This document shows, in pieces, positions 12,900 to 33,500 of a stretch of 64,000 nt of DNA; position 1 is the stretch's first letter; every line of letters starts with the position of its first letter. A program made the position numbers and the translations under genes. The stretch is taken from the NCBI RefSeq assembly GCF_057098645.1, contig NZ_CM169472.1; one strand, given 5' to 3'. Below the pieces are notes generated by a model. The model had not been told where the DNA came from. It made no database searches and was given only the letters and a program-made list of their open reading frames with translations.

Positions 12900-14359
12900 T
12901 GAAAAAATTACTGCGTCTTTTTTTCCCGCTCTCGCTGCGGGTACGTTTTCTGTTGGCAACGGCAGCGGTAGTACTGGTGCTTTCGCTTGCCTACGGAATG
13001 GTCGCGCTGATCGGTTATAGCGTCAGTTTCGATAAAACTACGTTTCGGCTGTTACGTGGCGAGAGCAATCTGTTCTATACCCTTGCGAAGTGGGAAAACA
13101 ATAAGTTGCATGTCGAGTTACCCGAAAATATCGACAAGCAAAGCCCCACCATGACGCTAATTTATGATGAGAACGGGCAGCTTTTATGGGCGCAACGTGA
13201 CGTGCCCTGGCTGATGAAGATGATCCAGCCTGACTGGCTGAAATCGAATGGTTTTCATGAAATTGAAGCGGATGTTAACGATACCAGCCTCTTGCTGAGT
13301 GGAGATCATTCGATACAGCAACAGTTGCAGGAAGTGCGGGAAGATGATGACGACGCGGAGATGACCCACTCGGTGGCGGTAAACGTCTACCCGGCAACAT
13401 CGCGGATGCCAAAGTTAACCATTGTGGTGGTGGATACCATTCCGGTGGAGCTAAAAAGTTCCTATATGGTCTGGAGCTGGTTTATCTATGTGCTCTCAGC
13501 CAATCTGCTGTTAGTGATCCCGCTGCTGTGGGTCGCCGCCTGGTGGAGTTTACGCCCCATCGAAGCCCTGGCAAAAGAAGTCCGCGAACTGGAAGAACAT
13601 AACCGCGAATTGCTCAATCCAGCCACAACGCGAGAACTGACCAGTCTGGTACGAAACCTGAACCGATTGTTAAAAAGCGAACGCGAACGTTACGACAAAT
13701 ACCGTACAACGCTCACCGACCTGACCCATAGTCTGAAAACGCCACTGGCGGTGCTGCAAAGTACGCTGCGTTCTCTGCGTAGTGAAAAGATGAGCGTCAG
13801 TGATGCTGAACCGGTAATGCTGGAGCAAATCAGCCGCATTTCACAGCAAATTGGCTACTACCTGCATCGTGCCAGTATGCGCGGCGGGACATTGCTCAGC
13901 CGCGAGCTGCATCCGGTCGCCCCACTGCTGGACAATCTCACCTCGGCGCTGAACAAAGTGTATCAACGCAAAGGGGTCAATATCTCTCTCGATATTTCGC
14001 CAGAGATCAGCTTTGTCGGTGAGCAGAACGATTTTGTCGAGGTGATGGGCAATGTGCTGGATAATGCCTGTAAATATTGCCTCGAGTTTGTCGAAATTTC
14101 TGCAAGGCAAACCGACGAGCATCTCTATATTGTGGTCGAGGATGATGGACCCGGTATTCCATTAAGCAAGCGAGAGGTCATTTTCGACCGTGGTCAACGG
14201 GTTGATACTTTACGCCCTGGGCAAGGTGTGGGGCTGGCGGTAGCCCGCGAAATCACCGAGCAATATGAGGGTAAAATCGTCGCCGGAGAGTGCATGCTGG
14301 GCGGTGCGCGGATGGAGGTGATTTTTGGTCGCCAGCATTCTGCGCCGAAAGATGAATAA
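12899..14359 (+). CDS. phoQ: Sensor histidine kinase PhoQ (486 aa)
   Basis: Full-length PhoQ-like protein with periplasmic sensor, HAMP and HisKA/HATPase domains. Confidence 0.95.
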
Positions 14360-14443
14360 ATATGTCCTTTTATCACTATACCAAGTCAAGTCATTGATTT
14401 AATTAAACAATTATCATTGAAAAAGTGCCAAAAATCGCAAATT

Positions 14444-14508
14444 GACTACACCATTAACTACACCGTTCGGTGCACTGTATGAAACAACGTGGAACAAATA
14501 GACACAAG
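14444..14508 (+). promoter_or_regulatory. Left-arm repeat cluster: GACTACACC, AACTACACC, then GAAACAACGTGGAACAAATAGACACAAG
   Basis: Near-identical arrangement found upstream of int at 32445-32510; candidate integrase arm-type and accessory-factor binding sites. Confidence 0.4.
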
Positions 14509-14572
14509 AAATATACAGGCGGGTAATCTTTCCAGGGGGAAGCGCACCAATTCATGAGGGGCGTTAATGTCG

Positions 14573-14615
14573 ATATGGGGATCCCCATAACGGGGCTACC
14601 GGATTTTTTTTCCGG
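14573..14615. repeat. Two perfect palindromes (TATGGGGATCCCCATA and CCGGATTTTTTTTCCGG) in the island left-end non-coding region
   Basis: Read directly from the sequence. Confidence 0.5.
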
Positions 14616-14874
14616 TTAACATTTAATCAGGCTGGTGGGTTTTACATACCCTTGATCACCGTAATGATGATCCAGATGTGCACCTTTTCCACCAATGGCG
14701 GAAAAGCTCCAACCGTAACGATGATCGCTATGGTTGCCTCGATGGTCTGCGTGGTCATTATGACCATTCAGCCAGTGACCTTAATCAGAATTTTTCGCTA
14801 AAAAATGACGTTGGCCACGTCATCCTGATAGCACAAAATCACGTCGATTTTTAATGAACGGTTAAACCGTCTTT

Positions 14875-14915
14875 TTGTCACGGTGTGTCACTGGTTGTCA
14901 CTCTCCGTCACGATT
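14875..14915. repeat. Four closely spaced GTCAC repeats (TGTCACGG, TGTCACTGG, TGTCACTCT, CGTCACGAT)
   Basis: Direct repeats about 110 bp downstream of the last packaging-operon gene; candidate TerS-binding/cos-pac or operator array. Confidence 0.35.
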
Positions 14916-15025
14916 GAGGTGGTGGTCATTCTGCCCGACCGCGCATTTTTGCGCTATCGGGAATATAAAACAGTTACCGCCGTCAGCTACCCAGCTCAGA
15001 ATTGAGCCGCCTTTTAATCAACAAG

Positions 15026-15307
15026 TTACCGCCGTAACCGCTCCGGCTTCTTCCAGTGGTACGTTATTTTCGCCTTCTCCCGATACAGTTCAACGCGGCG
15101 ATTGTAGGCCAGCATTTCCAGAACGCGGATCCGTATGTCGCGCATATCCGCATCATTAAGCTGGATACCATCACGGCGCATCACCTCAGCAACAACACGC
15201 GCATAATTTTCGGCTGTCACGCTGTCCGGCTGCGTGGTCTGTTCGTCAGCCTGCTGGCTGATTCCAGAGACGCGGCGGATTAATCGCAGTATTTCTGCTT
15301 CTGTCAT
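15026..15307 (-). CDS. Hypothetical protein (93 aa) downstream of terL
   Basis: ORF with GAGG Shine-Dalgarno 8 nt upstream, 14 nt after the terL stop. Confidence 0.55.
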   Translation of the reverse strand: MTEAEILRLIRRVSGISQQADEQTTQPDSVTAENYARVVAEVMRRDGIQLNDADMRDIRIRVLEMLAYNRRVELYREKAKITYHWKKPERLRR

Positions 15308-15320
15308 GCTGCTGACCTCA

Positions 15321-16982
15321 TTACACCCCGCTAAATTCTTCCAGTTTCTGGCGGTGGCTGTCGCTTATATCAAAAGCAAAATCCTCATGCTCTGCCTGGA
15401 ATGTACCAAACGCCATCAGCGCCGCCACGCTCGGGTCTATCTTGTTCGGTGATTTTTTCTTGTTCGGCTTGATATTGGCGTTCGCGTCACTCTGCATCAC
15501 GACGTTACTCATCGACCAGGACAACACCGGATCGCTACGATGCACAATCACCCTGCGGTTAACAAAAACTTCGAACGATTTCGCCGCCGGACTGAATCTG
15601 AGGTAGGTTTGCGGGAACGGCTCCACCTCAAAGCCTGCCCCCTGTAATTGCGTCCTGAGATGCGTGGCGTTCCACGTATCAAAGCCCACCAGCCTGATAT
15701 TAAATTTCTCCGCATCCTGCATGATGTCATCTCTGATCCGGTCGTAATCAATGCAGTCACCTGGCGTTGTGCGTATCCAGCCCGCTTTAGCCCACTGGCG
15801 ATAGACAGCGCGGTTTTTATTGGCGGGGTTCTGTAGCTGGAACTCCGGCAGATAATGACGGGAAACCAGCATGATATTTTTACCGACCGGAAAGGCATAG
15901 CACACGCTGGAAATATCGCTGGTTGATGATAAGTCCAGCCCCGCGTAACACTCCTGCCCGTGTAAATCTTCCTCCGTGAACGTTCCGGCACACTCAGCCC
16001 ATGCGCCGTTACCCATCCACGGGGTAGCCCCCTGGCACCAGATATTAAATCGCTTTGTCATCATCTCCACCCATTGCGACGGAATACCCCGCGCTTTCTG
16101 GATGGTTGAGGCCAGTTTTTCACGATCCACGGAAACATCGATGTTAGGGTTAGCCTTTATCCACATCGCCGGATCATCAACCTCGTTTTCGTCGTCCAGT
16201 TCGTAAATCAGTACAAAAATTGAATCGTTGACCTCTTCGCCGTCCAGGATCTGGCAGCAATAATCATAGTGCTGCTTACAGGCTGAAACGACGTTACTGC
16301 CCGATGTGGTAATGGCAAATAACAGCCCTTCGGGACGTGCGCCCATCCCCAGCTCAAGCGCGGAATAAACGCCGTTATCGGGGTGTAGGTGGTATTCGTC
16401 CACGATGGAAAGGCTTGGGTTTGTGCCCTCGATGGTTGCCGCTTTTGCTGCCAGCGGCTTTAACAGGCTGTTGCTTTTCGGGTGCATCACCTTGTGGGCC
16501 TGAATATTCACCCGCCTGCGTAACGGTCGGGATAAAAGGCACATCTGACGCGCATCATCAAAAACGATCCGCGCCTGGTCACGGCTCACCGCTGCGGTGT
16601 AAATATCCTGCTGCCCGTTCTCCATAATCAGAAACCAGTTAGCCAGAATCGCGGCGGTCGTGGATTTCGCATTTTTGCGCGGCACTTCGATAAAGGCGCT
16701 CGTGTATTTGCGCCGTCCGGTGGCCTTAACCTTAAAGCCGAGGATGCACGCAAAGGCGAACTGCTGCCACGGCTCCAGCTCAATGGGTCTGCCACGCATC
16801 GGTCCTTTTACGTGCGGGCACACCCTGGAAAAGGCAATAAACCGCTCCACAACCTCACGATCGAACGTGTAAAGGGGGCTTTTAAGGTCCGAAAAGTACC
16901 GTTTAACAGCCTGTTTTAACCGTTTACAGGCCGGAATTTTGCCCGTTTTTACGTCTTCTGCGTACTTATTCCAGGCGGTCAA
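15321..16982 (-). CDS. terL: Terminase large subunit (553 aa)
   Basis: Size and position after TerS; ATPase and nuclease regions typical of phage TerL. Confidence 0.85.
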   Translation of the reverse strand: MTAWNKYAEDVKTGKIPACKRLKQAVKRYFSDLKSPLYTFDREVVERFIAFSRVCPHVKGPMRGRPIELEPWQQFAFACILGFKVKATGRRKYTSAFIEVPRKNAKSTTAAILANWFLIMENGQQDIYTAAVSRDQARIVFDDARQMCLLSRPLRRRVNIQAHKVMHPKSNSLLKPLAAKAATIEGTNPSLSIVDEYHLHPDNGVYSALELGMGARPEGLLFAITTSGSNVVSACKQHYDYCCQILDGEEVNDSIFVLIYELDDENEVDDPAMWIKANPNIDVSVDREKLASTIQKARGIPSQWVEMMTKRFNIWCQGATPWMGNGAWAECAGTFTEEDLHGQECYAGLDLSSTSDISSVCYAFPVGKNIMLVSRHYLPEFQLQNPANKNRAVYRQWAKAGWIRTTPGDCIDYDRIRDDIMQDAEKFNIRLVGFDTWNATHLRTQLQGAGFEVEPFPQTYLRFSPAAKSFEVFVNRRVIVHRSDPVLSWSMSNVVMQSDANANIKPNKKKSPNKIDPSVAALMAFGTFQAEHEDFAFDISDSHRQKLEEFSGV

Positions 16983-17322
16983 GCTCGTCCTCTTCTTCTG
17001 TTTCCGGTGGATTTTTACGGCGGCTTATCGGGTCAAAACCGAGCAAGGAGGCCATTTTTATCATCACTCTTTCAGCGTCGGATTTTGCGCTTAATGCGGG
17101 GTTTCTGCTCTCGCCGCCCTGACTGTTAACAATGCTGAACCCGCGCGCCGCAAGGTCTGCAACGGCTTTCCGGTAAATGGAGTAGTTGACGCAATACAGT
17201 TCCAGATTGCTCCAGTCGGCGGGGGTCAGGTCTCCCCGTTCCGCAAGCTGCCGCGATTTTTCCCGCCACTGCTTCACGGCGATATCATCCAGGTAGGCGG
17301 GGGCTTTCGGTGGTCTTGCCAT
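16966..17322 (-). CDS. terS: Terminase small subunit, P27-family-like (118 aa)
   Basis: Small acidic-C-terminus protein overlapping terL start, downstream of an HNH gene. Confidence 0.75.
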   Translation of the reverse strand: MARPPKAPAYLDDIAVKQWREKSRQLAERGDLTPADWSNLELYCVNYSIYRKAVADLAARGFSIVNSQGGESRNPALSAKSDAERVMIKMASLLGFDPISRRKNPPETEEEDELDRLE

Positions 17323-17444: not shown

Positions 17445-17669
17445 TCAGCGATTGCGGAAACATTCCATAACCTCGCGGTCACGGTCGGTTAATCGCTTCG
17501 CTGTGATGCGTTCTGCGCGTCCTGACGCTTTATCTTTATGCCCTGTTTCCTGTGTCTTCCATGCGTCACGCTGCCTTATAAGTCCACGGATAAGGCGGTT
17601 TTGTTCCCGCTCATTCATCAGCGTCATACATCCAGTTATTGCGGTTAGCGGCCCGTTCTTCCTCTTCAT
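17445..17669 (-). CDS. Hypothetical basic protein (74 aa) overlapping the 3-prime end of the HNH gene
   Basis: ATG at 17669 preceded by AGGTGG Shine-Dalgarno (5-nt spacer); out of frame with HNH; start uncertain. Confidence 0.4.
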   Translation of the reverse strand: MKRKNGPLTAITGCMTLMNEREQNRLIRGLIRQRDAWKTQETGHKDKASGRAERITAKRLTDRDREVMECFRNR

Positions 17670-20503: not shown

Positions 20504-21661
20504 TTAATCGTCGTCTTCCGGCAGTTCCAGAATCTTGATCGCGTTCGAATCCACCACGCCACCGCCTAAATATTTTTGCGTGAAAATTTTGATGAATCCT
20601 GGTTCTGTCAGGTTGTCCGGTCTGGTGCGAACACCTGTTTCGTGATCAACAATGTAGTAACCGCGTTTGAAGTCACCCAGGGCAATAACGTTATCAGGCA
20701 TAAACTCCAGATATTCGACCGGAAGGCCCAGCAACGTATCAGGATCACCCGCCTGTAAACGGTCGCGCCAGATATAATCACCGTTCGCGTTCTTCACCTT
20801 CTGAAGTTTTGCCGCCGTCGTGGAGTTAACCACCCAGACCGCGTTTTTGCGGTATTTTTTACGTAATGCAAATTTCAGGTCGATCAGCGGGTCCGCAGAT
20901 GTCCACGCCAGAGATTCGGAAGGTTTAATTACCTGCAACGTACCAAAATCACGCTCTTTGTCGTTCTTCTCTGCACGGGGTACGGATAAAAAACCTTTTG
21001 CTTTTTTGTCACCGTCGCCCACAACCAGATCGCTTTCTTCGGTTTCCGTGAAGGTGTCGCCAATCTCACCCGTCAGCCATGAAAGGATGTCCACATCGGA
21101 AAAATCCACGATTTCCTGTGTGGTGCGCGGGTACGCATAGACCGGATACAGCTTGATGCTCACCTCGTTAATCTGCGGGGTGCTGGTCTGTTCGCGTGCC
21201 TTACCCTCTTCACCGTGGTTAACGGTCGCACCGCCAGCGGAAACAAGCTGCTTAAACTCGTTGCTGCTGATTTTCTTCACGGTACAGATGCGGCGCATGG
21301 TGGATTCATCCGCCAGCATTCGCATGATTTCGGTGTTCAGTTCAGGGATAACGGTATAACCACCATCAGCGGGAACGCCTGTACTTAATGCGCGGGTTTC
21401 ACCTGTCAGAATGTAGTTGCGGAGTTCTGCGGGGTCAGTGGTCTGACTGCTTTTACCTGGCTTGCTGCGCTCTTCGTCTGCAATGGCTTCAAGGCGGGAA
21501 ATGTCTTTATCGAGGGATTCAGCTTTAGCGCGTAATTCGTCAAATTTTGCGCCCTCTGCATCGTTAAGGCTGCGGTTTTCTTTTTCCGCGTTCTCCAGCA
21601 TGTCGCGCATCTGATTTTTAATGGCGGTTTTCTGCTGGCGTAATTCGATTATTCTCGGCAT
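20504..21661 (-). CDS. Major capsid protein, HK97 fold, with N-terminal coiled-coil scaffolding (delta) domain
   Basis: Start taken at MPRIIELRQQ (ATG 21661) because the upstream codons of the 21706 ORF form a terminator hairpin; coiled-coil N-terminus then MCP-like body. Confidence 0.85.
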   Translation of the reverse strand: MPRIIELRQQKTAIKNQMRDMLENAEKENRSLNDAEGAKFDELRAKAESLDKDISRLEAIADEERSKPGKSSQTTDPAELRNYILTGETRALSTGVPADGGYTVIPELNTEIMRMLADESTMRRICTVKKISSNEFKQLVSAGGATVNHGEEGKAREQTSTPQINEVSIKLYPVYAYPRTTQEIVDFSDVDILSWLTGEIGDTFTETEESDLVVGDGDKKAKGFLSVPRAEKNDKERDFGTLQVIKPSESLAWTSADPLIDLKFALRKKYRKNAVWVVNSTTAAKLQKVKNANGDYIWRDRLQAGDPDTLLGLPVEYLEFMPDNVIALGDFKRGYYIVDHETGVRTRPDNLTEPGFIKIFTQKYLGGGVVDSNAIKILELPEDDD

Positions 21662-21699
21662 AAAAAAAAGTCCTGGGGTTAAGTAAGGAACTCCAGGAC
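21662..21699 (-). terminator. Intrinsic terminator immediately upstream of the capsid start codon
   Basis: Minus-strand RNA: GUCCUGG(AGUU)...(AACC)CCAGGAC stem followed by U8 and then AUG. Confidence 0.55.
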
Positions 21700-21751
21700 G
21701 CGGCAAACACTCAACCGTTTTTCATAAGGAAATCAGTAATCGCACCGATCG

Positions 21752-23093: not shown

Positions 23094-24492
23094 ATAGCGG
23101 CGCTACATCATCCCCATCGATACGAATAACCCCATCTTTTTCCAGCTTGTACAGCCAGCGCCGGAAGTTTTTCATTTCATACCCCAGCTTTTTCATGTCA
23201 TCACGTAACAGCGGGATCGTGCACTTGTCGCCGTTCTGTGTGCGTGAACGGATGCACCCCCATAGCGCGGTATGGTTTTCCGTCTTGTTCCCTGCCTCCT
23301 CGATGCGCTCCAGTTCAACAGGAGGGCGCGGATCATCCACCACCACCAGCGACGTGATTAATTCACCGTCAGCGTCGGTAAAAAGCTCCACCACGCGTAA
23401 GTCATATGCGGCTTCTTTGAGTTCCTCCGCGTCCTTCATTTTGGTGCATGAGATAACCAGCGCTTCGCTTCCTGCGTCCTCCCTGCGTATCCGGTATTCA
23501 GCATCCAGCGAAGCACGAAATGCACTGGAACCGCGCGCGCCTTTCGTCTCATCCTTGCCGGAATGGTGAACCACCAGCACCGTGGCCCCTGTGCGTCGTT
23601 TCAGTTCGTCACAACCACGGATAAACGCCCCCATATCACGGGAATCATTTTCATCATTCCCACCAAAGCAACGCGCCAGCGTATCCAGAATAATCATGCG
23701 TACAGGTTTACCCGTTTCCCGCTCCACCTGACGGGCAGCGATAACCATTTCATCAACATCAAGCGGGGCAGCCGGAAAGATGGGGCGGTTTACCAGATAC
23801 AGATTTTTCACCTGCTCATCGTGCACAACCTCCCAGGCTTTTACACGACGCGGAACACCTATACCGCCTTCACCAACCACATAGAGAACCGCACCATGTG
23901 CAACCCTGCGGCCTCCCCACTGGCGACCAGTGGCAACATGGCACGCCCACGATCCGGCAAGGAATGATTTATAGGACCCGCTAGCCCCGTATATGCTGCA
24001 TAGCGATACCGCCGGAATAATCCCCTTAACCACGTAATCCAGTTGCGTGTCGTATCCGGTAGATCCAACGCTCATCGGTAGCGTGGTTTTTCGCTGGTGG
24101 TTTTTTTCTTCCGCCGGCTCTTTCCCGCGCACCCGTTCCAGGTATTCGCGCCAGTTCTCCCGCATATGGTTGTGCATCCCTTCGGGGTAATAATTCGCAT
24201 CAGTTACACCCGCCGCCGCCAGCTTGTGCGCAATGGCATTAATATTTGATGGCCTGATGTGGCCTGCCTTGTACAGCCGGACACAATAGCGCCCCTCGTC
24301 GATGATTCTCAGGTCTGCCAGTTCATCCAGTTGATCATCAGCCAGCACAACGGGAGGCACATTATCGCCAGCCAGTCGCCCGTCCTGTTCCTGCCACTGT
24401 TTCGCATGTGCCCAGGCATCACTACCCGCAAAAATAATGACTTCGGTCATCTTGTCGTAAGGCTGTTTTTTTAAGTTCGGTGCGCTTTTCAT
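23092..24492 (-). CDS. Replication initiation protein (primase/helicase-like RecA-fold NTPase, 466 aa)
   Basis: Deviant Walker A (GASGSYKS) and Walker B (MIILDTLARCF) motifs; position between small-gene operon and ori as in PICI pri-rep. Confidence 0.7.
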   Translation of the reverse strand: MKSAPNLKKQPYDKMTEVIIFAGSDAWAHAKQWQEQDGRLAGDNVPPVVLADDQLDELADLRIIDEGRYCVRLYKAGHIRPSNINAIAHKLAAAGVTDANYYPEGMHNHMRENWREYLERVRGKEPAEEKNHQRKTTLPMSVGSTGYDTQLDYVVKGIIPAVSLCSIYGASGSYKSFLAGSWACHVATGRQWGGRRVAHGAVLYVVGEGGIGVPRRVKAWEVVHDEQVKNLYLVNRPIFPAAPLDVDEMVIAARQVERETGKPVRMIILDTLARCFGGNDENDSRDMGAFIRGCDELKRRTGATVLVVHHSGKDETKGARGSSAFRASLDAEYRIRREDAGSEALVISCTKMKDAEELKEAAYDLRVVELFTDADGELITSLVVVDDPRPPVELERIEEAGNKTENHTALWGCIRSRTQNGDKCTIPLLRDDMKKLGYEMKNFRRWLYKLEKDGVIRIDGDDVAPL

Positions 24493-24614: not shown

Positions 24615-25370
24615 TTAACGCGTTTTTTCGCTGCTTTCCACTACCGGGGGATTTTTCCTCAGTGACTCTCCCTGAAGGACCACTCGGTGTGAGTTATGTA
24701 CCAGTCTGTCCAGGATGGCATCTGCTGTTGTTGGGTTCTCCATCAGACCATGCCATTTATCTACCGGGAACTGGCTTACCACTATCGTGCTGCTTTGTCC
24801 GTAACGATCCTCTATGAGCTCCAGAAGGTCATTACACTGGGCGTTACTTAACTGTTCCAGCCCCAGATCGTCCAGGATTAGAACCTGTATTTTTTGCAAC
24901 TGTTTCAGATATTTCAGCCAGCTGCCATCAACACGTCCCTGAGCCAGTTGTTCCAGTAATCGCCCGGTTCTACAGTACCGGACGCTGTGTTTCTGTCGAC
25001 ATGCCTGTTCGCCCAGCGCATTGGCTATCCAGCTCTTGCCACATCCTGTCGGACCGGTTATCAGCAGGTTTTTCCTGTGGGTTATGTAGTGGCCGTTCAG
25101 CAGTTCTCTCATCTGTTCAGCCCGCAGACCTCTTGAGGCCGGATAGCGCAGCCCTTCCGGTGTTGCCTGGTATTTCAGGCCGGCATTTTTTCTCAACCGT
25201 GCCACACGGCTGTTTTCCCTGCTCAGAAGCTCGTCATCAACCAGCAGCGTCAGCCTTTCCTCGAACGACAGTTCGTCGTAGGTCTGAGGCGTTTCCCGCT
25301 GCCGTATCAGGCTCCCGGCCATCGCCGGGAGTTTCAGTTGGGTCAGTTTGTTTAACAGGTTATCACTCAT
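24615..25370 (-). CDS. istB: IS21-family helper ATPase IstB
   Basis: Walker A GPTGCGKS and typical IstB architecture; start taken at MSDNLLNKL. Confidence 0.85.
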   Translation of the reverse strand: MSDNLLNKLTQLKLPAMAGSLIRQRETPQTYDELSFEERLTLLVDDELLSRENSRVARLRKNAGLKYQATPEGLRYPASRGLRAEQMRELLNGHYITHRKNLLITGPTGCGKSWIANALGEQACRQKHSVRYCRTGRLLEQLAQGRVDGSWLKYLKQLQKIQVLILDDLGLEQLSNAQCNDLLELIEDRYGQSSTIVVSQFPVDKWHGLMENPTTADAILDRLVHNSHRVVLQGESLRKNPPVVESSEKTR

Positions 25371-25386
25371 ACTGTTGTTCCTTCTG

Positions 25387-26952
25387 TCAGTGGTAGTAGC
25401 CCGGACCACGCAGGTTTTCATGCTCTGAAGCATATGCCGGATGTTGTTCGCCCTGGCGGGATAATGGAAGCTCCAGGTTCTCCCGATGGTGACGCAGCAG
25501 ATTGTCGATAAAGCGTCTGTCAGGGGCGTTATAGTGCAGGGCAACGTAACAGGCCTTTTCCAGCCGTTCCGGGCCGTATTTTTTCTGAAGTGCCAGCAGC
25601 CCCAGAACTGCACGATAAGCCAGTTCCGGATGGGGTTTTGCCTTCAGCATGGATTCAACCACCCGGCCTGTGGACGGGCCCGTACGTTTTCCCTGCTCGA
25701 TCAGGCGTTCCGGTGTCCATGTCCCGTGCTGCCGGTGGCGCTCTGGCATGTGAAGCGGATTGGTTGTGTGTTTATATTCATGTGTGCTGCGCGGATGTTG
25801 CGCCACACACTGCCCCTTGTGCCAGAGCTGTACCACCGACTGCCCCGCCTTCAGTGACAGACGCTGACCGACCAGTTCGTGTGGAACGGAGTACCAGTGA
25901 CGGGCATATTCAACGTGGTAGTCAGGGCCAACCTTCACAGCTTTGTATTCCGTGTATTCATAAGGTGCCAGAGGCAGCGGAGAGAGTGCTGGCGCATCCA
26001 GTATGCGGAAGCGTTCTGCACGGGTTTGATTGCCGTACCCCTTCATTGGCCGGTTATTCATGTCTGTCAGTAACTCCCTAAGGCGCGCATTCAGCGCCCT
26101 GAGCGTGTGGAAGGTTTCATTACGGATGCGGGCAAGAAGCCATCGTTCAACGATGAGGACGCCGTTTTCTGCTTTTGGTTTATCTTTAGGTTTGCGTGGT
26201 CGGGCCGGGATGATAACCGTGCCATAGTGCTCAGCCAGTGCCTGATAACTGTCGTTGATGACAGGCTCATATCGATCGGCCTTTTTCACTGCGCTTCTGA
26301 GGTTATCGGGGATGAGCAGCTTCGGTACGCCGCCCAGGAAGGTCAGGCAACGGCTGTGGGCATTTAACCATGACATCATGTCCTGACCTTCGCACGCTTC
26401 AACGTAGGTATAGTTGGACGCCCCCATTACGGCCACGAAGATTGCCACGCGGCGTATCTCACCGGTGTCCGGATTAATAACAGGAACCGTAGGACCACAG
26501 AAGTCGATAAAAAGCTTTTCGCCGGCACGATGCTCCTGGCGCATGGAGAGACGTCGCGTTTTTTTCCACTCCCGGTAGCAACGGCAGAAGTGCGAGTATC
26601 CCATCGCTTTGTTACCCGCCTGTGCCTTGTATTCCATCCACAACAGTTGCCGCGTCACACCTGGTTTTCTCATTTCCGTATCGAAGTACAACATGTCAGG
26701 CATTACAAGCTCTGATGCAAAGGTGTCTTTGGGCGGAAAAATGAGTTTCTCCAGCGTGTCATGGGATATATCAGCAGGTAATGGCCATGACAGAGAAGAG
26801 GCTTTGAAGCGGGCAAGAACCTCAAAAACGGTTGAGGCGCTGATGTGTAACGTCAGTCCGATACAACGGTTAGTCAGCTTCTTGTCGAACTTGAGCTGAA
26901 GGATCTTAAAACAGGTTTCCATAGTGCTCCTGGATTTTCTCTTTCTGGACAT
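25387..26952 (-). CDS. istA: IS21-family transposase IstA
   Basis: N-terminal HTH then DDE integrase core; start ambiguous (26922, 26952 or 27033). Confidence 0.8.
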   Translation of the reverse strand: MSRKRKSRSTMETCFKILQLKFDKKLTNRCIGLTLHISASTVFEVLARFKASSLSWPLPADISHDTLEKLIFPPKDTFASELVMPDMLYFDTEMRKPGVTRQLLWMEYKAQAGNKAMGYSHFCRCYREWKKTRRLSMRQEHRAGEKLFIDFCGPTVPVINPDTGEIRRVAIFVAVMGASNYTYVEACEGQDMMSWLNAHSRCLTFLGGVPKLLIPDNLRSAVKKADRYEPVINDSYQALAEHYGTVIIPARPRKPKDKPKAENGVLIVERWLLARIRNETFHTLRALNARLRELLTDMNNRPMKGYGNQTRAERFRILDAPALSPLPLAPYEYTEYKAVKVGPDYHVEYARHWYSVPHELVGQRLSLKAGQSVVQLWHKGQCVAQHPRSTHEYKHTTNPLHMPERHRQHGTWTPERLIEQGKRTGPSTGRVVESMLKAKPHPELAYRAVLGLLALQKKYGPERLEKACYVALHYNAPDRRFIDNLLRHHRENLELPLSRQGEQHPAYASEHENLRGPGYYH

Positions 26953-27137
26953 TGACGTCTCCACTGGTTTAAACACGGCAATGGAGACTGTGGTGAAAAG
27001 AGTTAATTCCCGGAGTGACTGGCAGGATGCCAATCAATGATCGGAAGCATGCCAAATCGTGATCGATTGTGATGCCAAACTGTGATCGGAGATGGATGCC
27101 AAATCATGATCGATTCGAATGCCAAACTGCGATCGAT

Positions 27138-28129: not shown

Positions 28130-29326
28130 ATGACCGAATCCAGCGATTACGAATCCGTCCAGGTCTTTATCGGCGTTGATGTCGGTAAAGATACGCATCA
28201 CGCTGTAGCCATTAATCGTTCAGGTAAACGCCTGTTCGATAAAGCATTACCCAACGACGAAAACAAACTCAGGTCGCTAATATCTGACCTGAAACAACAT
28301 GGTCAGATACTGCTGGTTGTTGATCAGCCAGCTACCATCGGTGCGTTACCTGTCGCCGTTGCCCGCTCAGAAGGAGTCCTTGTCGGATACCTCCCTGGAC
28401 TGGCCATGCGCCGCATAGCCGACTTACACGCCGGTGAAGCTAAAACTGATGCTCGTGACGCTGCCATCATTGCCGAAGCTGCCCGTACCCTGCCTCACGC
28501 GCTACGCACGCTGAAACTGGCTGACGAGCAAATCGCCGAACTCTCCATGCTCTGCGGCTTCGATGATGATCTTGCCGCACAGACAACGCAGGCCAGCAAC
28601 CGTATCCGCGGCCTTCTGACCCAGATACATCCGGCACTGGAGCGCGTTCTCGGTCCGAGACTTGATCACCCGGCGGTACTCGATCTTCTCCAGCGATATC
28701 CCTCACCAGAAAAACTCGCTTCGCTGGGTGAGAAGAAGCTGGCAGCCCAGCTCTGCAAACTTGCGCCTCGTCTGGGTAAACGCCTTGCAGCAGACATAGC
28801 TCAGGCACTGGCCGAACAAACCGTCGTCGTTCCCGGCACGAATGCCGCTGCCGTAGTACTGCCACGTCTGGCACTCCAGCTCATCACGCTGCGTAAGCAA
28901 AGAGACGAGGTGGTGCTTGAGGTAGAACAGCGAGTTCTTGCTCACCCTCTTTACCCGGTCCTGACCAGTATGCCCGGAGTCGGTGTCAGGACCGCAGCCA
29001 GACTCCTCACCGAGGTCGCCTGCCGCGCCTTCGCCTCTGCCGCACATCTCGCTGCTTATGCTGGCCTTGCGCCGGTAACTCGGCGATCCGGCTCGTCAAT
29101 ACGCGGTGAGCATCCCTCGCGACGGGGTAATAAAGCTCTCAAACGGGCGTTGTTCCTGTCGGCCTTCGCCGCGCTCAGGGATCCGCTCTCCAGGGCTTAC
29201 TACACCCGCAAAATGAGTCAGGGAAAACGACACAATCAGGCGCTTATCGCCCTGGCGAGACGACGCTGCGACGTTCTGTTCGCCATGATGCGCGACGGGA
29301 CTTTTTATACCCCGCAGGCGTCATAA
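28130..29326 (+). CDS. IS110-family transposase/recombinase (398 aa)
   Basis: N-terminal IGVDVGKDTHHAVAIN (RuvC-like DEDD) motif and C-terminal serine-containing domain. Confidence 0.85.
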   Translation: MTESSDYESVQVFIGVDVGKDTHHAVAINRSGKRLFDKALPNDENKLRSLISDLKQHGQILLVVDQPATIGALPVAVARSEGVLVGYLPGLAMRRIADLHAGEAKTDARDAAIIAEAARTLPHALRTLKLADEQIAELSMLCGFDDDLAAQTTQASNRIRGLLTQIHPALERVLGPRLDHPAVLDLLQRYPSPEKLASLGEKKLAAQLCKLAPRLGKRLAADIAQALAEQTVVVPGTNAAAVVLPRLALQLITLRKQRDEVVLEVEQRVLAHPLYPVLTSMPGVGVRTAARLLTEVACRAFASAAHLAAYAGLAPVTRRSGSSIRGEHPSRRGNKALKRALFLSAFAALRDPLSRAYYTRKMSQGKRHNQALIALARRRCDVLFAMMRDGTFYTPQAS

Positions 29327-31188: not shown

Positions 31189-32406
31189 TTATTTTCTTCT
31201 GGCTACTGGTAGCGTGGTTACGTTTTCATGTGTTCCCGCCAGTATCCCTAACCGCTCCATCCACATATCCAGCGCATTGCGTTTAGCATCCAGATAACGG
31301 GAATGATTATAAACTCGCTGCATTCCTGGCATCTGGTGGCCTGTAAGCTGCTCCACGACATGCGGATCAACGCCTAAATCGTTCAGCATGGTTGTAAAGG
31401 TGCGCCGGATGTCATGCAGTGACCAGTGAGGATGATTAAGCCTCCTGTGCGCTAATCTTCCATACTGCGATACGCTGGCCTCCTGTTTCACTTCCCCCAG
31501 CAATAAGCCCGTGTGCCTGTTCTGCTCCACCAGCTGCGTGACGAACGGCAGGATCGCTTCCGGTATGGGCCGGAATATTGCGACCTTCGTTTTGCTGTGC
31601 TCCTTCGGAACGGTCCATAGCATTTCCGTAAAATCCCACTCCCCGATCTCCGATAGCCTCAGTTCTACCGTCCTGGCTCCGAAGACAATCAGGAGGCGGA
31701 TTAACGCGACGTAGTAAGGGGAAAATATTTTTTTGTCCAGTGCCTGCAATAATTCGCCAAGTTCTTTGTTACTTAAGACACGTTCGCTTATATCCGGTTT
31801 TTTCCCAACGTCCGCCACGTTCAGATCGTCCAGAACGTTGCTGATTGCATAGCGCCGCCTACGGCAGAACTTAAGCGCCTGTTTGCACGCCTGTAGCACG
31901 AATCCGGCAGTAACAGGCGTTCGCTTTGCCACCTGGTCAAAACAGGCCAGCCAGTGCCGTAGCTCGCATTTATCCAGCGGCATAGCACCAATCTGCTGTA
32001 TTACGTGATTATTAAGTCGCCTTTTCAGGGCGATATAATCCACGCGCTTTTCCTTTACGTAATACTCAAGCCAGTAGGTGAGCGCATCGCCAACCGTTAC
32101 GGGCTTTAACGCTTCCTGTACGGTGTAATTCATCTCATGACGTGGATTTTTCCCCTCAGCCAGCCATGTGCGACACTGTGCGGCTTTTTCCCTAGCTGCT
32201 TTCAGGCTCAGATCAGGATAACTTCCCAGCTTAATGCGTTCGGGTCGTGTCTCCCTTCCCGTTCCGGCCCTGTATGTGAAATACCAGGTCAATTTCCCTG
32301 ATGTTAAATATTTCACGCTCAGGTTTCCGCCATCACTATAAAACGTGTTTTTCTCCGCTGGCTTACCATGAAGTTTCCTTAGCAAGGTATCGCTCAGTTT
32401 GTTCAT
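31189..32406 (-). CDS. int: Tyrosine integrase, P4-like (about 405 aa)
   Basis: Arm-binding N-terminal domain plus catalytic R..HxxR..Y signature (HDIRRTF...RYLD); start at ATG 32406 (GTG 32418 also possible). Confidence 0.9.
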   Translation of the reverse strand: MNKLSDTLLRKLHGKPAEKNTFYSDGGNLSVKYLTSGKLTWYFTYRAGTGRETRPERIKLGSYPDLSLKAAREKAAQCRTWLAEGKNPRHEMNYTVQEALKPVTVGDALTYWLEYYVKEKRVDYIALKRRLNNHVIQQIGAMPLDKCELRHWLACFDQVAKRTPVTAGFVLQACKQALKFCRRRRYAISNVLDDLNVADVGKKPDISERVLSNKELGELLQALDKKIFSPYYVALIRLLIVFGARTVELRLSEIGEWDFTEMLWTVPKEHSKTKVAIFRPIPEAILPFVTQLVEQNRHTGLLLGEVKQEASVSQYGRLAHRRLNHPHWSLHDIRRTFTTMLNDLGVDPHVVEQLTGHQMPGMQRVYNHSRYLDAKRNALDMWMERLGILAGTHENVTTLPVARRK

Positions 32407-32444
32407 TGCTCTGCTCACGTTTTACCCCCTCTTTACGAAAAAGT

Positions 32445-32510
32445 GACTACACCAGTGACTACACCGATCGTTGCACAAAGGGCTACAACGTGAAACAAGC
32501 TGGAACAAGG
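32445..32510 (+). promoter_or_regulatory. Right-arm repeat cluster: GACTACACC x2 then ACAACGTGAAACAAGCTGGAACAAGG
   Basis: Between the int start and the chromosomal junction; mirrors the left-arm cluster. Confidence 0.4.
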
Positions 32511-32593
32511 AAAATCACAAATCTGTTGATAATCAAAAACATAATGCACAGCCTGAAACATTATGAAACAGCAAAAAACACTAAATGATAAAA

Positions 32594-33500
32594 TGCTGTT
32601 ATTCTTAACCCGCTGGTGCAACACATGGTCCGCTGGCGAGTGCCGCGTGTACTGGCGGTGTCGATTTTGATGACCATCATCGTGATGGCTATGGTGTTGC
32701 TGTTAGCTTATCTGGGTTCCGCGCTCAACGAGTTGACGCGGACGTTACCGCAATATCGCAACTCTATTATGACGCCGCTGCAAGCTCTTGAGCCGTTGTT
32801 GCAACGCGTAGGGATTGACGTCTCAGTTGACCAGCTGGCGCATTACATTGATCCGAACGCGGCGATGACGTTGCTCACCAACTTATTGACGCAGTTATCT
32901 AATGCCATGTCATCAATATTTTTATTGCTGCTGACGGTGCTGTTTATGCTGCTCGAAGTGCCACAATTGCCCGGAAAATTTCAGCAAATGATGGCGCGTC
33001 CGGTTGAAGGGATGGCGGCGATTCAGCGTGCGATTGACAGTGTGTCTCATTATCTGGTGCTGAAAACAGCCATCAGCATCATCACCGGCCTGGTCGCATG
33101 GGCGATGCTCGCCGCCCTCGATGTTCGCTTCGCTTTTGTCTGGGGATTGCTGGCCTTTGCGCTTAATTACATCCCTAATATTGGTTCAGTTCTCGCGGCA
33201 ATCCCCCCTATCGCTCAGGTACTGGTGTTTAATGGCTTCTACGAAGCGTTGCTGGTGCTGGCGGGATATCTGCTGATTAATCTGGTCTTCGGCAATATTC
33301 TGGAGCCGCGCATCATGGGACGTGGGCTGGGGCTTTCGACATTGGTGGTATTTTTGTCGTTGATTTTTTGGGGATGGTTGTTAGGACCGGTGGGTATGCT
33401 GCTTTCCGTGCCGTTGACAATTATTGTCAAAATTGCGCTTGAACAAACAGCGGGAGGTCAAAGCATCGCCGTTCTGTTAAGCGATCTCAATAAAGAGTGA
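32594..33500 (+). pseudogene. tqsA: tqsA (ydgG) AI-2 exporter, 5-prime truncated at the island junction (lacks about 45 codons)
   Basis: K-12-like TqsA sequence begins abruptly at ...[16 protein letters not shown]; an in-frame TAA sits at 32589-32591 just inside the island. Confidence 0.8.

What the first reader, a model, noticed from the sequence alone, without database searches (positions are those of the whole stretch)
15026..15307. Extra 93-aa gene after terL at the distal end of the packaging operon
HK97-like head modules normally have the portal after terL; here a coupled unknown ORF is the last gene before the island end. Cargo or packaging-accessory genes are often found at such operon ends.
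Basis: inference. Interest (0 to 1): 0.3.

Follow-up and report, generated by a model that had tools for sequence, protein, structure and literature searches.

The report
Conserved end gene of phage satellites
The 93-aa gene after terL is real, but it is not a packaging add-on or cargo: it is a conserved last gene of E. coli-type phage satellites (PICIs), its function is unknown, and published marker constructs indicate it is dispensable for transfer.

Summary
The ORF at 15026-15307 (minus strand, 93 aa) is confirmed. It starts 13 nt after the terL stop and has a GAGGT ribosome-binding site. It is under purifying selection (dN/dS 0.12-0.5).

The surrounding element is a capsid-forming PICI (cf-PICI) of the EcCIEDL933 type.

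The gene is not tied to terL:
- It occurs in 1566 of 5426 complete E. coli genomes; this terL occurs in 537.
- It is the last gene of PICIs with at least four kinds of packaging module (TerS/TerL, Rpp, DUF1441, ProQ/PerC type), and of some with no terminase-like gene.
- A 200-640 bp repeat region and a conserved 270-bp att arm always follow it.
- It has no hit in 50,697 phage genomes, and no match in Pfam, NCBIfam, PADLOC, the PDB or fold searches.

Primer mapping shows it equals c1505 of EcCICFT073. Over-expressed c1505 did not block lambda, and the c1504-07::cat island that lacks it was the element used in the published transfer assays. By gene count it is gene 1795 of EcCIEDL933, where the marker of the published strains sits.

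Best guess, at low confidence: a small arginine-rich nucleic-acid-binding protein acting on the adjacent island end. Its kind is already catalogued. Interest is modest.

The parts
15026..15307 (-). ORF93: 93-aa, arginine-rich (15 R, 4 K; net charge about +4), predicted all-helical protein with an invariant C-terminal WKKPERLRR. Member of PHROG 1561. Orthologue of EcCICFT073 c1505 and, by gene count, of EcCIEDL933 gene 1795.
15308..15323 (-). terL-ORF93 junction: terL stop TAA (15321-15323), GAGGT Shine-Dalgarno (15315-15319) and a 7-nt spacer. No terminator or promoter-like site was found here, so co-transcription with terL is inferred.
15321..16982 (-). cf-PICI large terminase (TerL_ATPase + TerL_nuclease domains), the upstream neighbour in this island only.
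15016..15028 (-). TAACTTGTTGATT: a match to the IHF consensus YAANNNNTTGATW whose first three bases are the ORF93 stop codon. Together with the last codons (CGGTTACGGCGGTAAC) it can form a 6-7 bp hairpin.
14941..15015 (-). Repeat region: a second CGGCGGTAAC unit (14955-14982) and two short palindromes (GCTCAATTCTGAGC at 14994-15007; GCGCAAAAATGCGC at 14941-14954).
14877..14911 (-). Four GTGAC repeats phased at 10 bp. Arrays of this kind occur in 14 of 41 distinct islands.
14372..14640 (.). Conserved att-arm block of the island, with the arm-type direct repeats ATTGACTACACC / ATTAACTACACC at 14441-14464. Similar repeats occur at the int end.
14358..14367 (.). att core AAATATGTCC, overlapping the phoQ stop codon; the island boundary.
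   Evidence: K-12 empty site compared with both EDL933 junctions

Best explanation
Tier 1, identity (shown; confidence about 0.9). The ORF is a genuine gene and the local copy of a narrow Enterobacteriaceae family (Escherichia, Salmonella, Citrobacter; PHROG 1561). It is a fixed end-of-island backbone gene of E. coli-type PICIs. It sits between whatever packaging or interference module the island carries and a 200-640 bp repeat region followed by a conserved 270-bp att arm. It is neither part of the HK97-type head/terminase machinery nor exchangeable cargo. In this cf-PICI it is probably read from the same late transcript as terL. Tier 2, mechanism (inferred; about 0.25-0.3). It is a small, arginine-rich, all-helical nucleic-acid-binding protein made late in the satellite cycle. 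It acts on the DNA or RNA of the adjacent island end. That stretch holds same-orientation IHF-consensus and hairpin repeats, the first of which begins with the gene's own stop codon. After excision and circularisation the stretch lies directly upstream of attP and int on the same strand. The protein would tune recombination, int expression or the end of the late transcript. It would not be needed for capsid assembly, packaging or laboratory transfer.
For: Element identity: int, PerC, SSB, AAA_25 helicase, DUF4222, capsid, protease, portal, connectors, HNH, TerS and TerL are all present. The same arrangement, with a 92%-identical ORF, occurs in the prototype EcCIEDL933 between roxA and phoQ. 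Backbone status: the ORF is in 1566 genomes (2007 places) against 537 genomes (582 places) for this terL. It is the last gene after TerL, Rpp, a Nu1-like 146-aa protein, DUF1441, or a 175-aa protein of a ProQ/PerC-type island, and in some islands after no terminase-like gene. The conserved arm block follows at 199-640 nt in nearly all of 43 loci (two outliers, at most 1092 nt), which leaves no room for cargo. There is no tblastn hit in 50,697 phage genomes. Real protein: dN/dS is 0.12-0.5, and 10 of about 29 invariant residues are Arg or Lys, including WKKPERLRR, which is kept even in the 44%-identical Salmonella member. Cis region: the strict IHF consensus averages 1.24 hits per 300 nt in one orientation, against 0.00 in the other and 0.008 in shuffles, over 41 distinct islands; the stop codon starts a match in 20 of 41. 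EDL933 has 6 copies within 390 bp and nothing comparable elsewhere in the island. Dispensability for transfer: the c1505 primers map with 0 mismatches around the CFT073 orthologue, and c1504-07::cat removes L100 23104-24000, which holds the ORF and the array. That island, in lambda and phi80 lysogens, was the 'EcCICFT073 cat' element used as wild type in the transfer assays (PMC6739421). The EcCIEDL933 marker is '1795-1796::cat'.
Against: No DNA- or RNA-binding fold was recognised. The AF2 model is only moderate (pLDDT 68) and matches nothing. ORF93 variants do not track the att site: islands at clpS carry variants 93% and 77% identical to the window ORF at nucleotide level, and islands at phoQ carry diverged variants (100% and 89%). 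15 of 41 islands have no strict consensus site in the first 300 nt. The authors report that a cloned int-attP segment was tested for integration in DH5alpha (PMC6092414). The island without c1505 was still the element used in their transfer assays. A helper-embedded cf-PICI lacks the gene. The hairpin at the stop codon is not more stable than shuffled sequence (z -0.4 to -1.8).
Confidence: 0.4

Rival explanations
1. Host- or phage-directed accessory protein. It would be an anti-phage or counter-defence/establishment factor, or a lysogenic-conversion regulator, acting through protein-protein contacts rather than on the island's own DNA.
For: The 3' end of PICIs is a documented place for accessory and immune genes (PMC11364771; 10.1101/2025.02.11.637232). 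The gene appears dispensable for laboratory transfer. It is a small orphan protein with a narrow taxonomic range. In classical PICIs it has its own 77-300 nt upstream region.
Against: It is a fixed syntenic gene, not a variable hotspot occupant. It has no PADLOC hit. Over-expressed c1505 did not reduce lambda plaquing; phi80 and HK97 were reported only for c1503 (PMC6739421 section 8). EcCIEDL933 does not block HK106 or HK446, although its marker sits at 1795-1796. The invariant residues are dominated by Arg/Lys, which suggests a nucleic-acid ligand.
Confidence: 0.25
2. Packaging accessory of the cf-PICI terminase: a factor that helps TerS/TerL/HNH recognise or cut the island's cos site, or that docks the terminase on the small procapsid.
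For: The gene is 13 nt after terL with its own SD sequence. In most islands the upstream neighbour is terminase-related: TerL, Rpp, Nu1-like or DUF1441. In classical PICIs an inverted lambda cosN lies about 65-75 nt upstream of the ORF.
Against: The same protein (85-98% identical) serves islands that use lambda-type, HK97-type and DUF1441-type packaging, and islands with no terminase-like gene next to it. The authors' gene-by-gene mutagenesis of the packaging module names only gene 1792 as hypothetical; by count that is the ORF between hnh and terS, not this one. The marker of the strains used for all the capsid, packaging and cryo-EM work sits at 1795-1796. EcCICFT073 without c1505 was the element used in the lambda and phi80 transfer assays.
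Confidence: 0.08
3. The conservation belongs to overlapping cis-acting DNA or RNA (terminator, IHF sites, att arm), and the reading frame is incidental or decaying.
For: The last 40 nt and the first 35 nt downstream are nearly identical between the window and a 44%-identical Salmonella copy. A hairpin and an IHF-consensus match overlap the stop codon.
Against: dN/dS is well below 1 along the whole gene. Length is kept at 86-94 aa. Synonymous changes occur even in the invariant tail (GAG/GAA, TTA/TTG/CTG, CGG/CGA/CGT). Only occasional frameshifted copies were seen (L013).
Confidence: 0.04

Closest known systems
EcCICFT073 c1505 and EcCIEDL933 gene 1795: uncharacterised genes of the two experimentally studied E. 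coli PICIs
   Same: Orthologues: 91% and 92% amino-acid identity, the same last-gene position, and the same att site (phoQ/roxA) at the ORF end.
   Different: Nothing of substance. The window copy sits in an island interrupted by IS elements, and the int end of that island is joined to another locus (tqsA). The equation with '1795' rests on gene counting from capsid = 1786, not on a sequence given in the paper.
Recombination directionality factors and attP architectural proteins (lambda Xis, P4 Vis/AlpA, with IHF sites in the attP arms)
   Same: A small basic protein encoded next to an att arm that is rich in same-orientation IHF-consensus sites, on the arm distal to int, as with the Xis/IHF sites of lambda (the lambda layout is from general knowledge).
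   Different: No winged-helix or HTH_17 signature. The predicted fold is three helices. These islands already carry AlpA. The repeats lie 300-650 bp from the core, further out than a typical attP. Transfer of the island does not appear to require the gene.
PICI 3'-end accessory and immune genes (for example Tai and other satellite-borne defence systems)
   Same: Position at the 3' end, and apparent dispensability for the excision-replication-packaging cycle.
   Different: Those genes are variable and are exchanged at hotspots. This one is fixed across at least four island types and about 29% of E. coli genomes. It showed no anti-lambda activity when over-expressed.
Rpp / Ppi / TerS-type packaging redirectors of satellites
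   Same: It lies next to them and is expressed from the same late region.
   Different: No sequence or fold similarity, and it is not specific to one helper packaging system.

Membership tests
Capsid-forming PICI (the element that carries the ORF) | PICI core present: P4-type integrase, replication module (DUF4222 + primase/helicase), unidirectional gene order | tested here: met
   Pfam hits: Arm-DNA-bind_3 + Phage_integrase, DUF4222, AAA_25, SSB, PerC. All lie on the minus strand.
Capsid-forming PICI (the element that carries the ORF) | Own HK97-type capsid, protease, portal and two connectors, then hnh-terS-terL, in that order | tested here: met
   The order is as described for Proteobacteria in 10.1101/2022.09.08.507074.
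Capsid-forming PICI (the element that carries the ORF) | No tail or lysis genes; size about 15 kb | tested here: met
   No tail or lysis family was found among the ORFs of 14.4-32.4 kb. The span is about 18 kb including two IS elements, so about 14-15 kb without them.
Capsid-forming PICI (the element that carries the ORF) | Helper-dependent induction and use of helper tails only | not testable with these tools
   Experimental property. The IS21 and IS110 insertions and the rearranged int end suggest that this copy may be immobile.
PHROG 1561 / c1505 / 1795 family | Full-length sequence match | tested here: met
   Residues 1-93 match profile positions 1-93 of 93, E 2.3e-55. 85 of 93 residues are identical to CFT073 c1505.
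PHROG 1561 / c1505 / 1795 family | Last gene of the island, followed by a repeat region and a conserved att arm | tested here: met
HK97-type head or packaging proteins | Match to a structural or terminase family, by sequence or by fold | tested here: not met
Known anti-phage defence systems | Match to a PADLOC model, or anti-phage activity | tested here: not met
   No PADLOC hit. In the published work pBAD18-c1505 did not block lambda. Only a few phages were tested.
Excisionase / RDF (Xis, Vis/AlpA, HTH_17) | Winged-helix or HTH_17 domain; stimulates excision | tested here: not met
   No such domain was found, and the model is three helices. The activity itself cannot be tested here.
IHF binding sites (the downstream repeats) | Match to WATCAANNNNTTR / YAANNNNTTGATW | tested here: met
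   About 150-fold enrichment over shuffles, in one orientation only.
IHF binding sites (the downstream repeats) | Bound and bent by IHF | not testable with these tools
   Needs a footprint or ChIP. The motif (TAAC-N3-TTGAT) is tighter than the IHF consensus and could instead be an iteron for another protein.

The most novel reading that the evidence does not exclude
ORF93 and the IHF-consensus/hairpin repeat array that begins at its stop codon form a previously unrecognised 'end module' common to all E. coli-type PICIs. The arginine-rich protein (with IHF) would remodel the island end. After circularisation that end lies directly upstream of attP and int. Remodelling would set the direction or timing of recombination, or int expression, in donor versus recipient cells. 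Such a function would be invisible in standard transfer assays but selected in nature.
Probability: 0.15. Interest if true: 0.55.

Novelty: new member of a known kind. Interest (0 to 1): 0.3.

Why it matters
About 29% of complete E. coli genomes carry this gene, often in several copies. It is one of the few genes shared by PICIs that otherwise use quite different ways of hijacking phages, yet nobody knows what it does. The standard laboratory derivative of one model island deletes it, and the marker of the other sits at its position. Any role it has in integration control, establishment in wild hosts or phage interplay would therefore have gone unseen. Knowing that it is backbone, not cargo and not packaging machinery, also helps when annotating satellites and choosing 'neutral' marker sites.

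Tried and rejected
Sequence families. Pfam, NCBIfam and PADLOC scans gave nothing. A profile search of PDB sequences gave only E ~1 noise.

Structure.
- The AF2 monomer had pLDDT 68.
- The afdb50 library was not available.
- A tandem-dimer AF2 construct gave pLDDT 41 and was uninformative.

Remote homology. The exhaustive phmmer search over 1.84 billion representatives found only 37 clusters. Its two long hits are ankyrin and TPR repeat proteins at 29% identity, which BLASTP does not support (E 0.8). I treat them as repeat-driven chance matches.

Other collections. The genome-contig scan confirmed nothing. There was no Rfam family in 14300-15400.

Signals near the ORF. The promoter and terminator scans were at chance level. 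The hairpin over the stop codon folds, but no better than shuffled sequence.

Ideas rejected.
- A cos site downstream of the ORF: in classical PICIs the cosN copies flank rpp instead.
- Replication iterons for the repeat array: the replicases differ between islands that share the array.

Full report
**Observation.** The window carries rluE-nudJ-mnmA-hflD-purB-phoP-phoQ on the plus strand, up to 14359. A minus-strand island follows. Pfam confirms these genes:
- integrase, 31189-32418
- DUF4222
- AAA_25 helicase
- SSB
- PerC
- HK97-type capsid, 20504-21706
- protease
- portal
- head-completion protein
- gp6-like connector
- HNH
- P27-family TerS, 16966-17322
- TerL, 15321-16982

The ORF in question (15026-15307, minus strand, 93 aa) starts 13 nt after the terL stop, with GAGGT seven nt before its ATG. 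It is the last ORF of the operon.

**What the element is.**
- The gene order capsid-protease-portal-connectors-hnh-terS-terL, with a PICI integrase/replication core and no tail genes, is that of capsid-forming PICIs (10.1101/2022.09.08.507074).
- The prototype EcCIEDL933, read from the EDL933 chromosome, has the same order between roxA and phoQ and a 92%-identical 93-aa ORF after terL.
- A K-12 empty site places the att core (AAATATGTCC) on the phoQ stop codon, so everything from 14358 on is island.
- 'Portal after terL' is therefore not expected here. The order is normal for this family.

**The gene is not a terL appendage.**
- blastn against 5426 complete E. coli genomes finds the ORF in 1566 genomes (2007 places). 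This terL is in 537 genomes (582 places).
- A probe that joins the terL 3' end to the ORF is covered at 80% or more in 491 genomes. Nearly every cf-PICI has the gene, but most copies lie elsewhere.
- Annotated contexts show it as the last gene of several island types:
  - classical PICIs, after Rpp (IHE3034, O157 TX265-1, CFT073);
  - islands with a Nu1-like 146-aa gene;
  - islands with a ClpP-capsid fusion plus DUF1441;
  - a Salmonella-type island with ProQ/PerC and unknown morphogenesis genes (44% identity).
- Among 80 IMG/VR loci the upstream neighbour is Rpp in 32, TerL in 21, Nu1-like in 15, and none of these in 12. Some of the last group have no terminase-like gene at all.
- The conserved 270-bp att-arm block follows the ORF at 199-640 nt in nearly all of 43 loci (two outliers, at most 1092 nt), so no cargo fits between them.
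- No phage genome of 50,697 encodes it.
- One helper-embedded cf-PICI, inserted in a prophage terL, lacks it.
- It is therefore a fixed end-of-island backbone gene of enterobacterial PICIs.

**The protein.**
- dN/dS among ten copies is 0.12-0.5.
- The family is narrow: 37 clusters at 50% identity among 1.84 billion representatives, from Escherichia, Salmonella and Citrobacter.
- Conserved parts are an N-terminal amphipathic helix, a helical hairpin (RRDGIxLNxxDxxxIRxRV), and an invariant tail Y-x-WKKPERLRR. The tail is kept even in the 44%-identical member, and some synonymous changes occur within it.
- The protein has 15 Arg and 4 Lys against 15 acidic residues.
- AF2 gives three helices (3-14, 32-45, 52-82) at pLDDT 68.
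- No sequence family, solved structure or fold matches it.

**Published genetics, recovered by primer mapping.**
- The pBAD18-c1505 primers of PMC6739421 (Table S5) map with no mismatch to CFT073 at L100 23316-23689. They bracket the orthologue at 23373-23654, which shares 85 of 93 residues with the window copy.
- The paper states that, of the genes cloned from this region, only c1503 (rppA) reduced lambda plaquing.
- The homology arms of 'c1504-07::cat' delete L100 23104-24000. That removes the inverted cosN, the ORF and the repeat region.
- This allele, in lambda and phi80 lysogens, is the 'EcCICFT073 cat' element used as wild type in the transfer assays.
- For the cf-PICI prototype, the capsid is gene 1786. 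Counting along the operon makes the 'hypothetical gene 1792' the small ORF between hnh and terS; its loss severely reduced transfer. The count makes this ORF gene 1795.
- The strains used for all EcCIEDL933 work carry '1795-1796::cat'. I could not see whether that is a replacement or an insertion.
- Together these data argue against an essential packaging role. They also show that the model constructs cannot reveal what the gene does.

**The DNA after the gene.**
- The last 40 nt of the ORF and about 35 nt beyond it are almost identical even between copies that are 44% identical as proteins.
- The stop codon TAA opens a match to the IHF consensus (TAACTTGTTGATT). Further copies, short palindromes with compensating changes, and phased GTGAC repeats follow.
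- Over 41 distinct islands the strict consensus occurs 1.24 times per 300 nt in the gene's orientation. It occurs 0.00 times in the other orientation and 0.008 times in shuffles.
- EDL933 has six copies in 390 bp and nothing comparable elsewhere in the island.
- After excision this region would lie directly upstream of attP and int on the same strand. This is inferred from the map.

**Mechanism.**
- Shown: the gene is a real, conserved, PICI-specific backbone gene at the island end. It is apparently co-transcribed with terL here, and published constructs indicate it is dispensable for transfer of a classical PICI.
- Inferred, at about 0.25-0.3: it is a small arginine-rich nucleic-acid-binding protein acting on the adjacent repeat/att region or its transcript.
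- Against this: no recognised binding fold, no co-variation with the att site, repeats absent from some islands, and no apparent requirement for the gene in the published transfer assays.
- Rivals:
  - a host- or phage-directed accessory factor (0.25);
  - conservation caused only by overlapping cis elements (0.04).

**Comparison and novelty.** The closest known things are its own uncharacterised orthologues, c1505 and 1795. It resembles a recombination directionality factor only in size, charge and position, and it fails the domain test. It resembles 3'-end PICI cargo only in position, and it is not variable. The window copy is one more member of a catalogued but unstudied family inside a known kind of element.

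**Dead ends** are listed under Tried and rejected.

Noticed in passing
window 14877-15028 (and L003 14745-15180, L009 6572-6970): There is an orientation-specific array of IHF-consensus-like units (TAAC-N3-TTGAT-W), short palindromes with compensating changes, and phased GTGAC repeats directly after the ORF. The first unit starts with the ORF's stop codon. The strict consensus is about 150-fold enriched over shuffles across 41 distinct islands.
   Followed up: partly
window 32419-33500 versus 14358-14367: The integrase end of the island abuts an N-terminally truncated tqsA, which is a PICI att site (cf. L014). The ORF93 end abuts phoQ, the att site of EcCIEDL933 and EcCICFT073. The chromosome therefore seems rearranged between two PICI insertion sites, roughly 480 kb apart on the K-12 map.
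   Followed up: partly
window 24615-27033 and 28130-29326: An IS21-family element (istA/istB) sits between the DUF4222 gene and the AAA_25 helicase gene, which overlap in intact islands. An IS110-family transposase gene lies further on. This copy of the island is probably no longer mobile.
   Followed up: no
window about 17445-17627 (minus strand): A small ORF of about 60 aa lies between hnh and terS. By gene count it is the 'hypothetical gene 1792' of EcCIEDL933, whose mutation severely reduced transfer. It lies where an HK97-type cos site would be expected.
   Followed up: no
L097 (E. coli OkiPb01706, NZ_AP042637.1 1398484-1410750): A cf-PICI is inserted inside the terL gene of an HK97-like prophage (a helper-embedded arrangement). 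This one lacks the ORF93 gene after its own terL.
   Followed up: no
L100 22558 and 23297; L005 9348 and 10215; L006 9347 and 10214: Classical PICIs carry two perfect lambda cosN sequences (GGGCGGCGACCT) in inverted orientation flanking rpp. One lies about 65-75 nt upstream of the ORF93 start. In some Rpp-type islands the rpp-ORF93 gap is only 21-77 nt, so that copy is absent.
   Followed up: partly
window 14642-14801, both strands: Short ORFs that would encode hydrophobic peptides lie in the region between the repeats and the att arm. One example on the plus strand reads ...KAPTVTMIAMVASMVCVVIMTI...; there is also a 41-aa ORF on the minus strand. The region is partly conserved in EDL933, where all five codon differences in the plus-strand frame are amino-acid replacements, all to other hydrophobic residues. 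Annotations differ between genomes (c1506/c1507 in CFT073).
   Followed up: no
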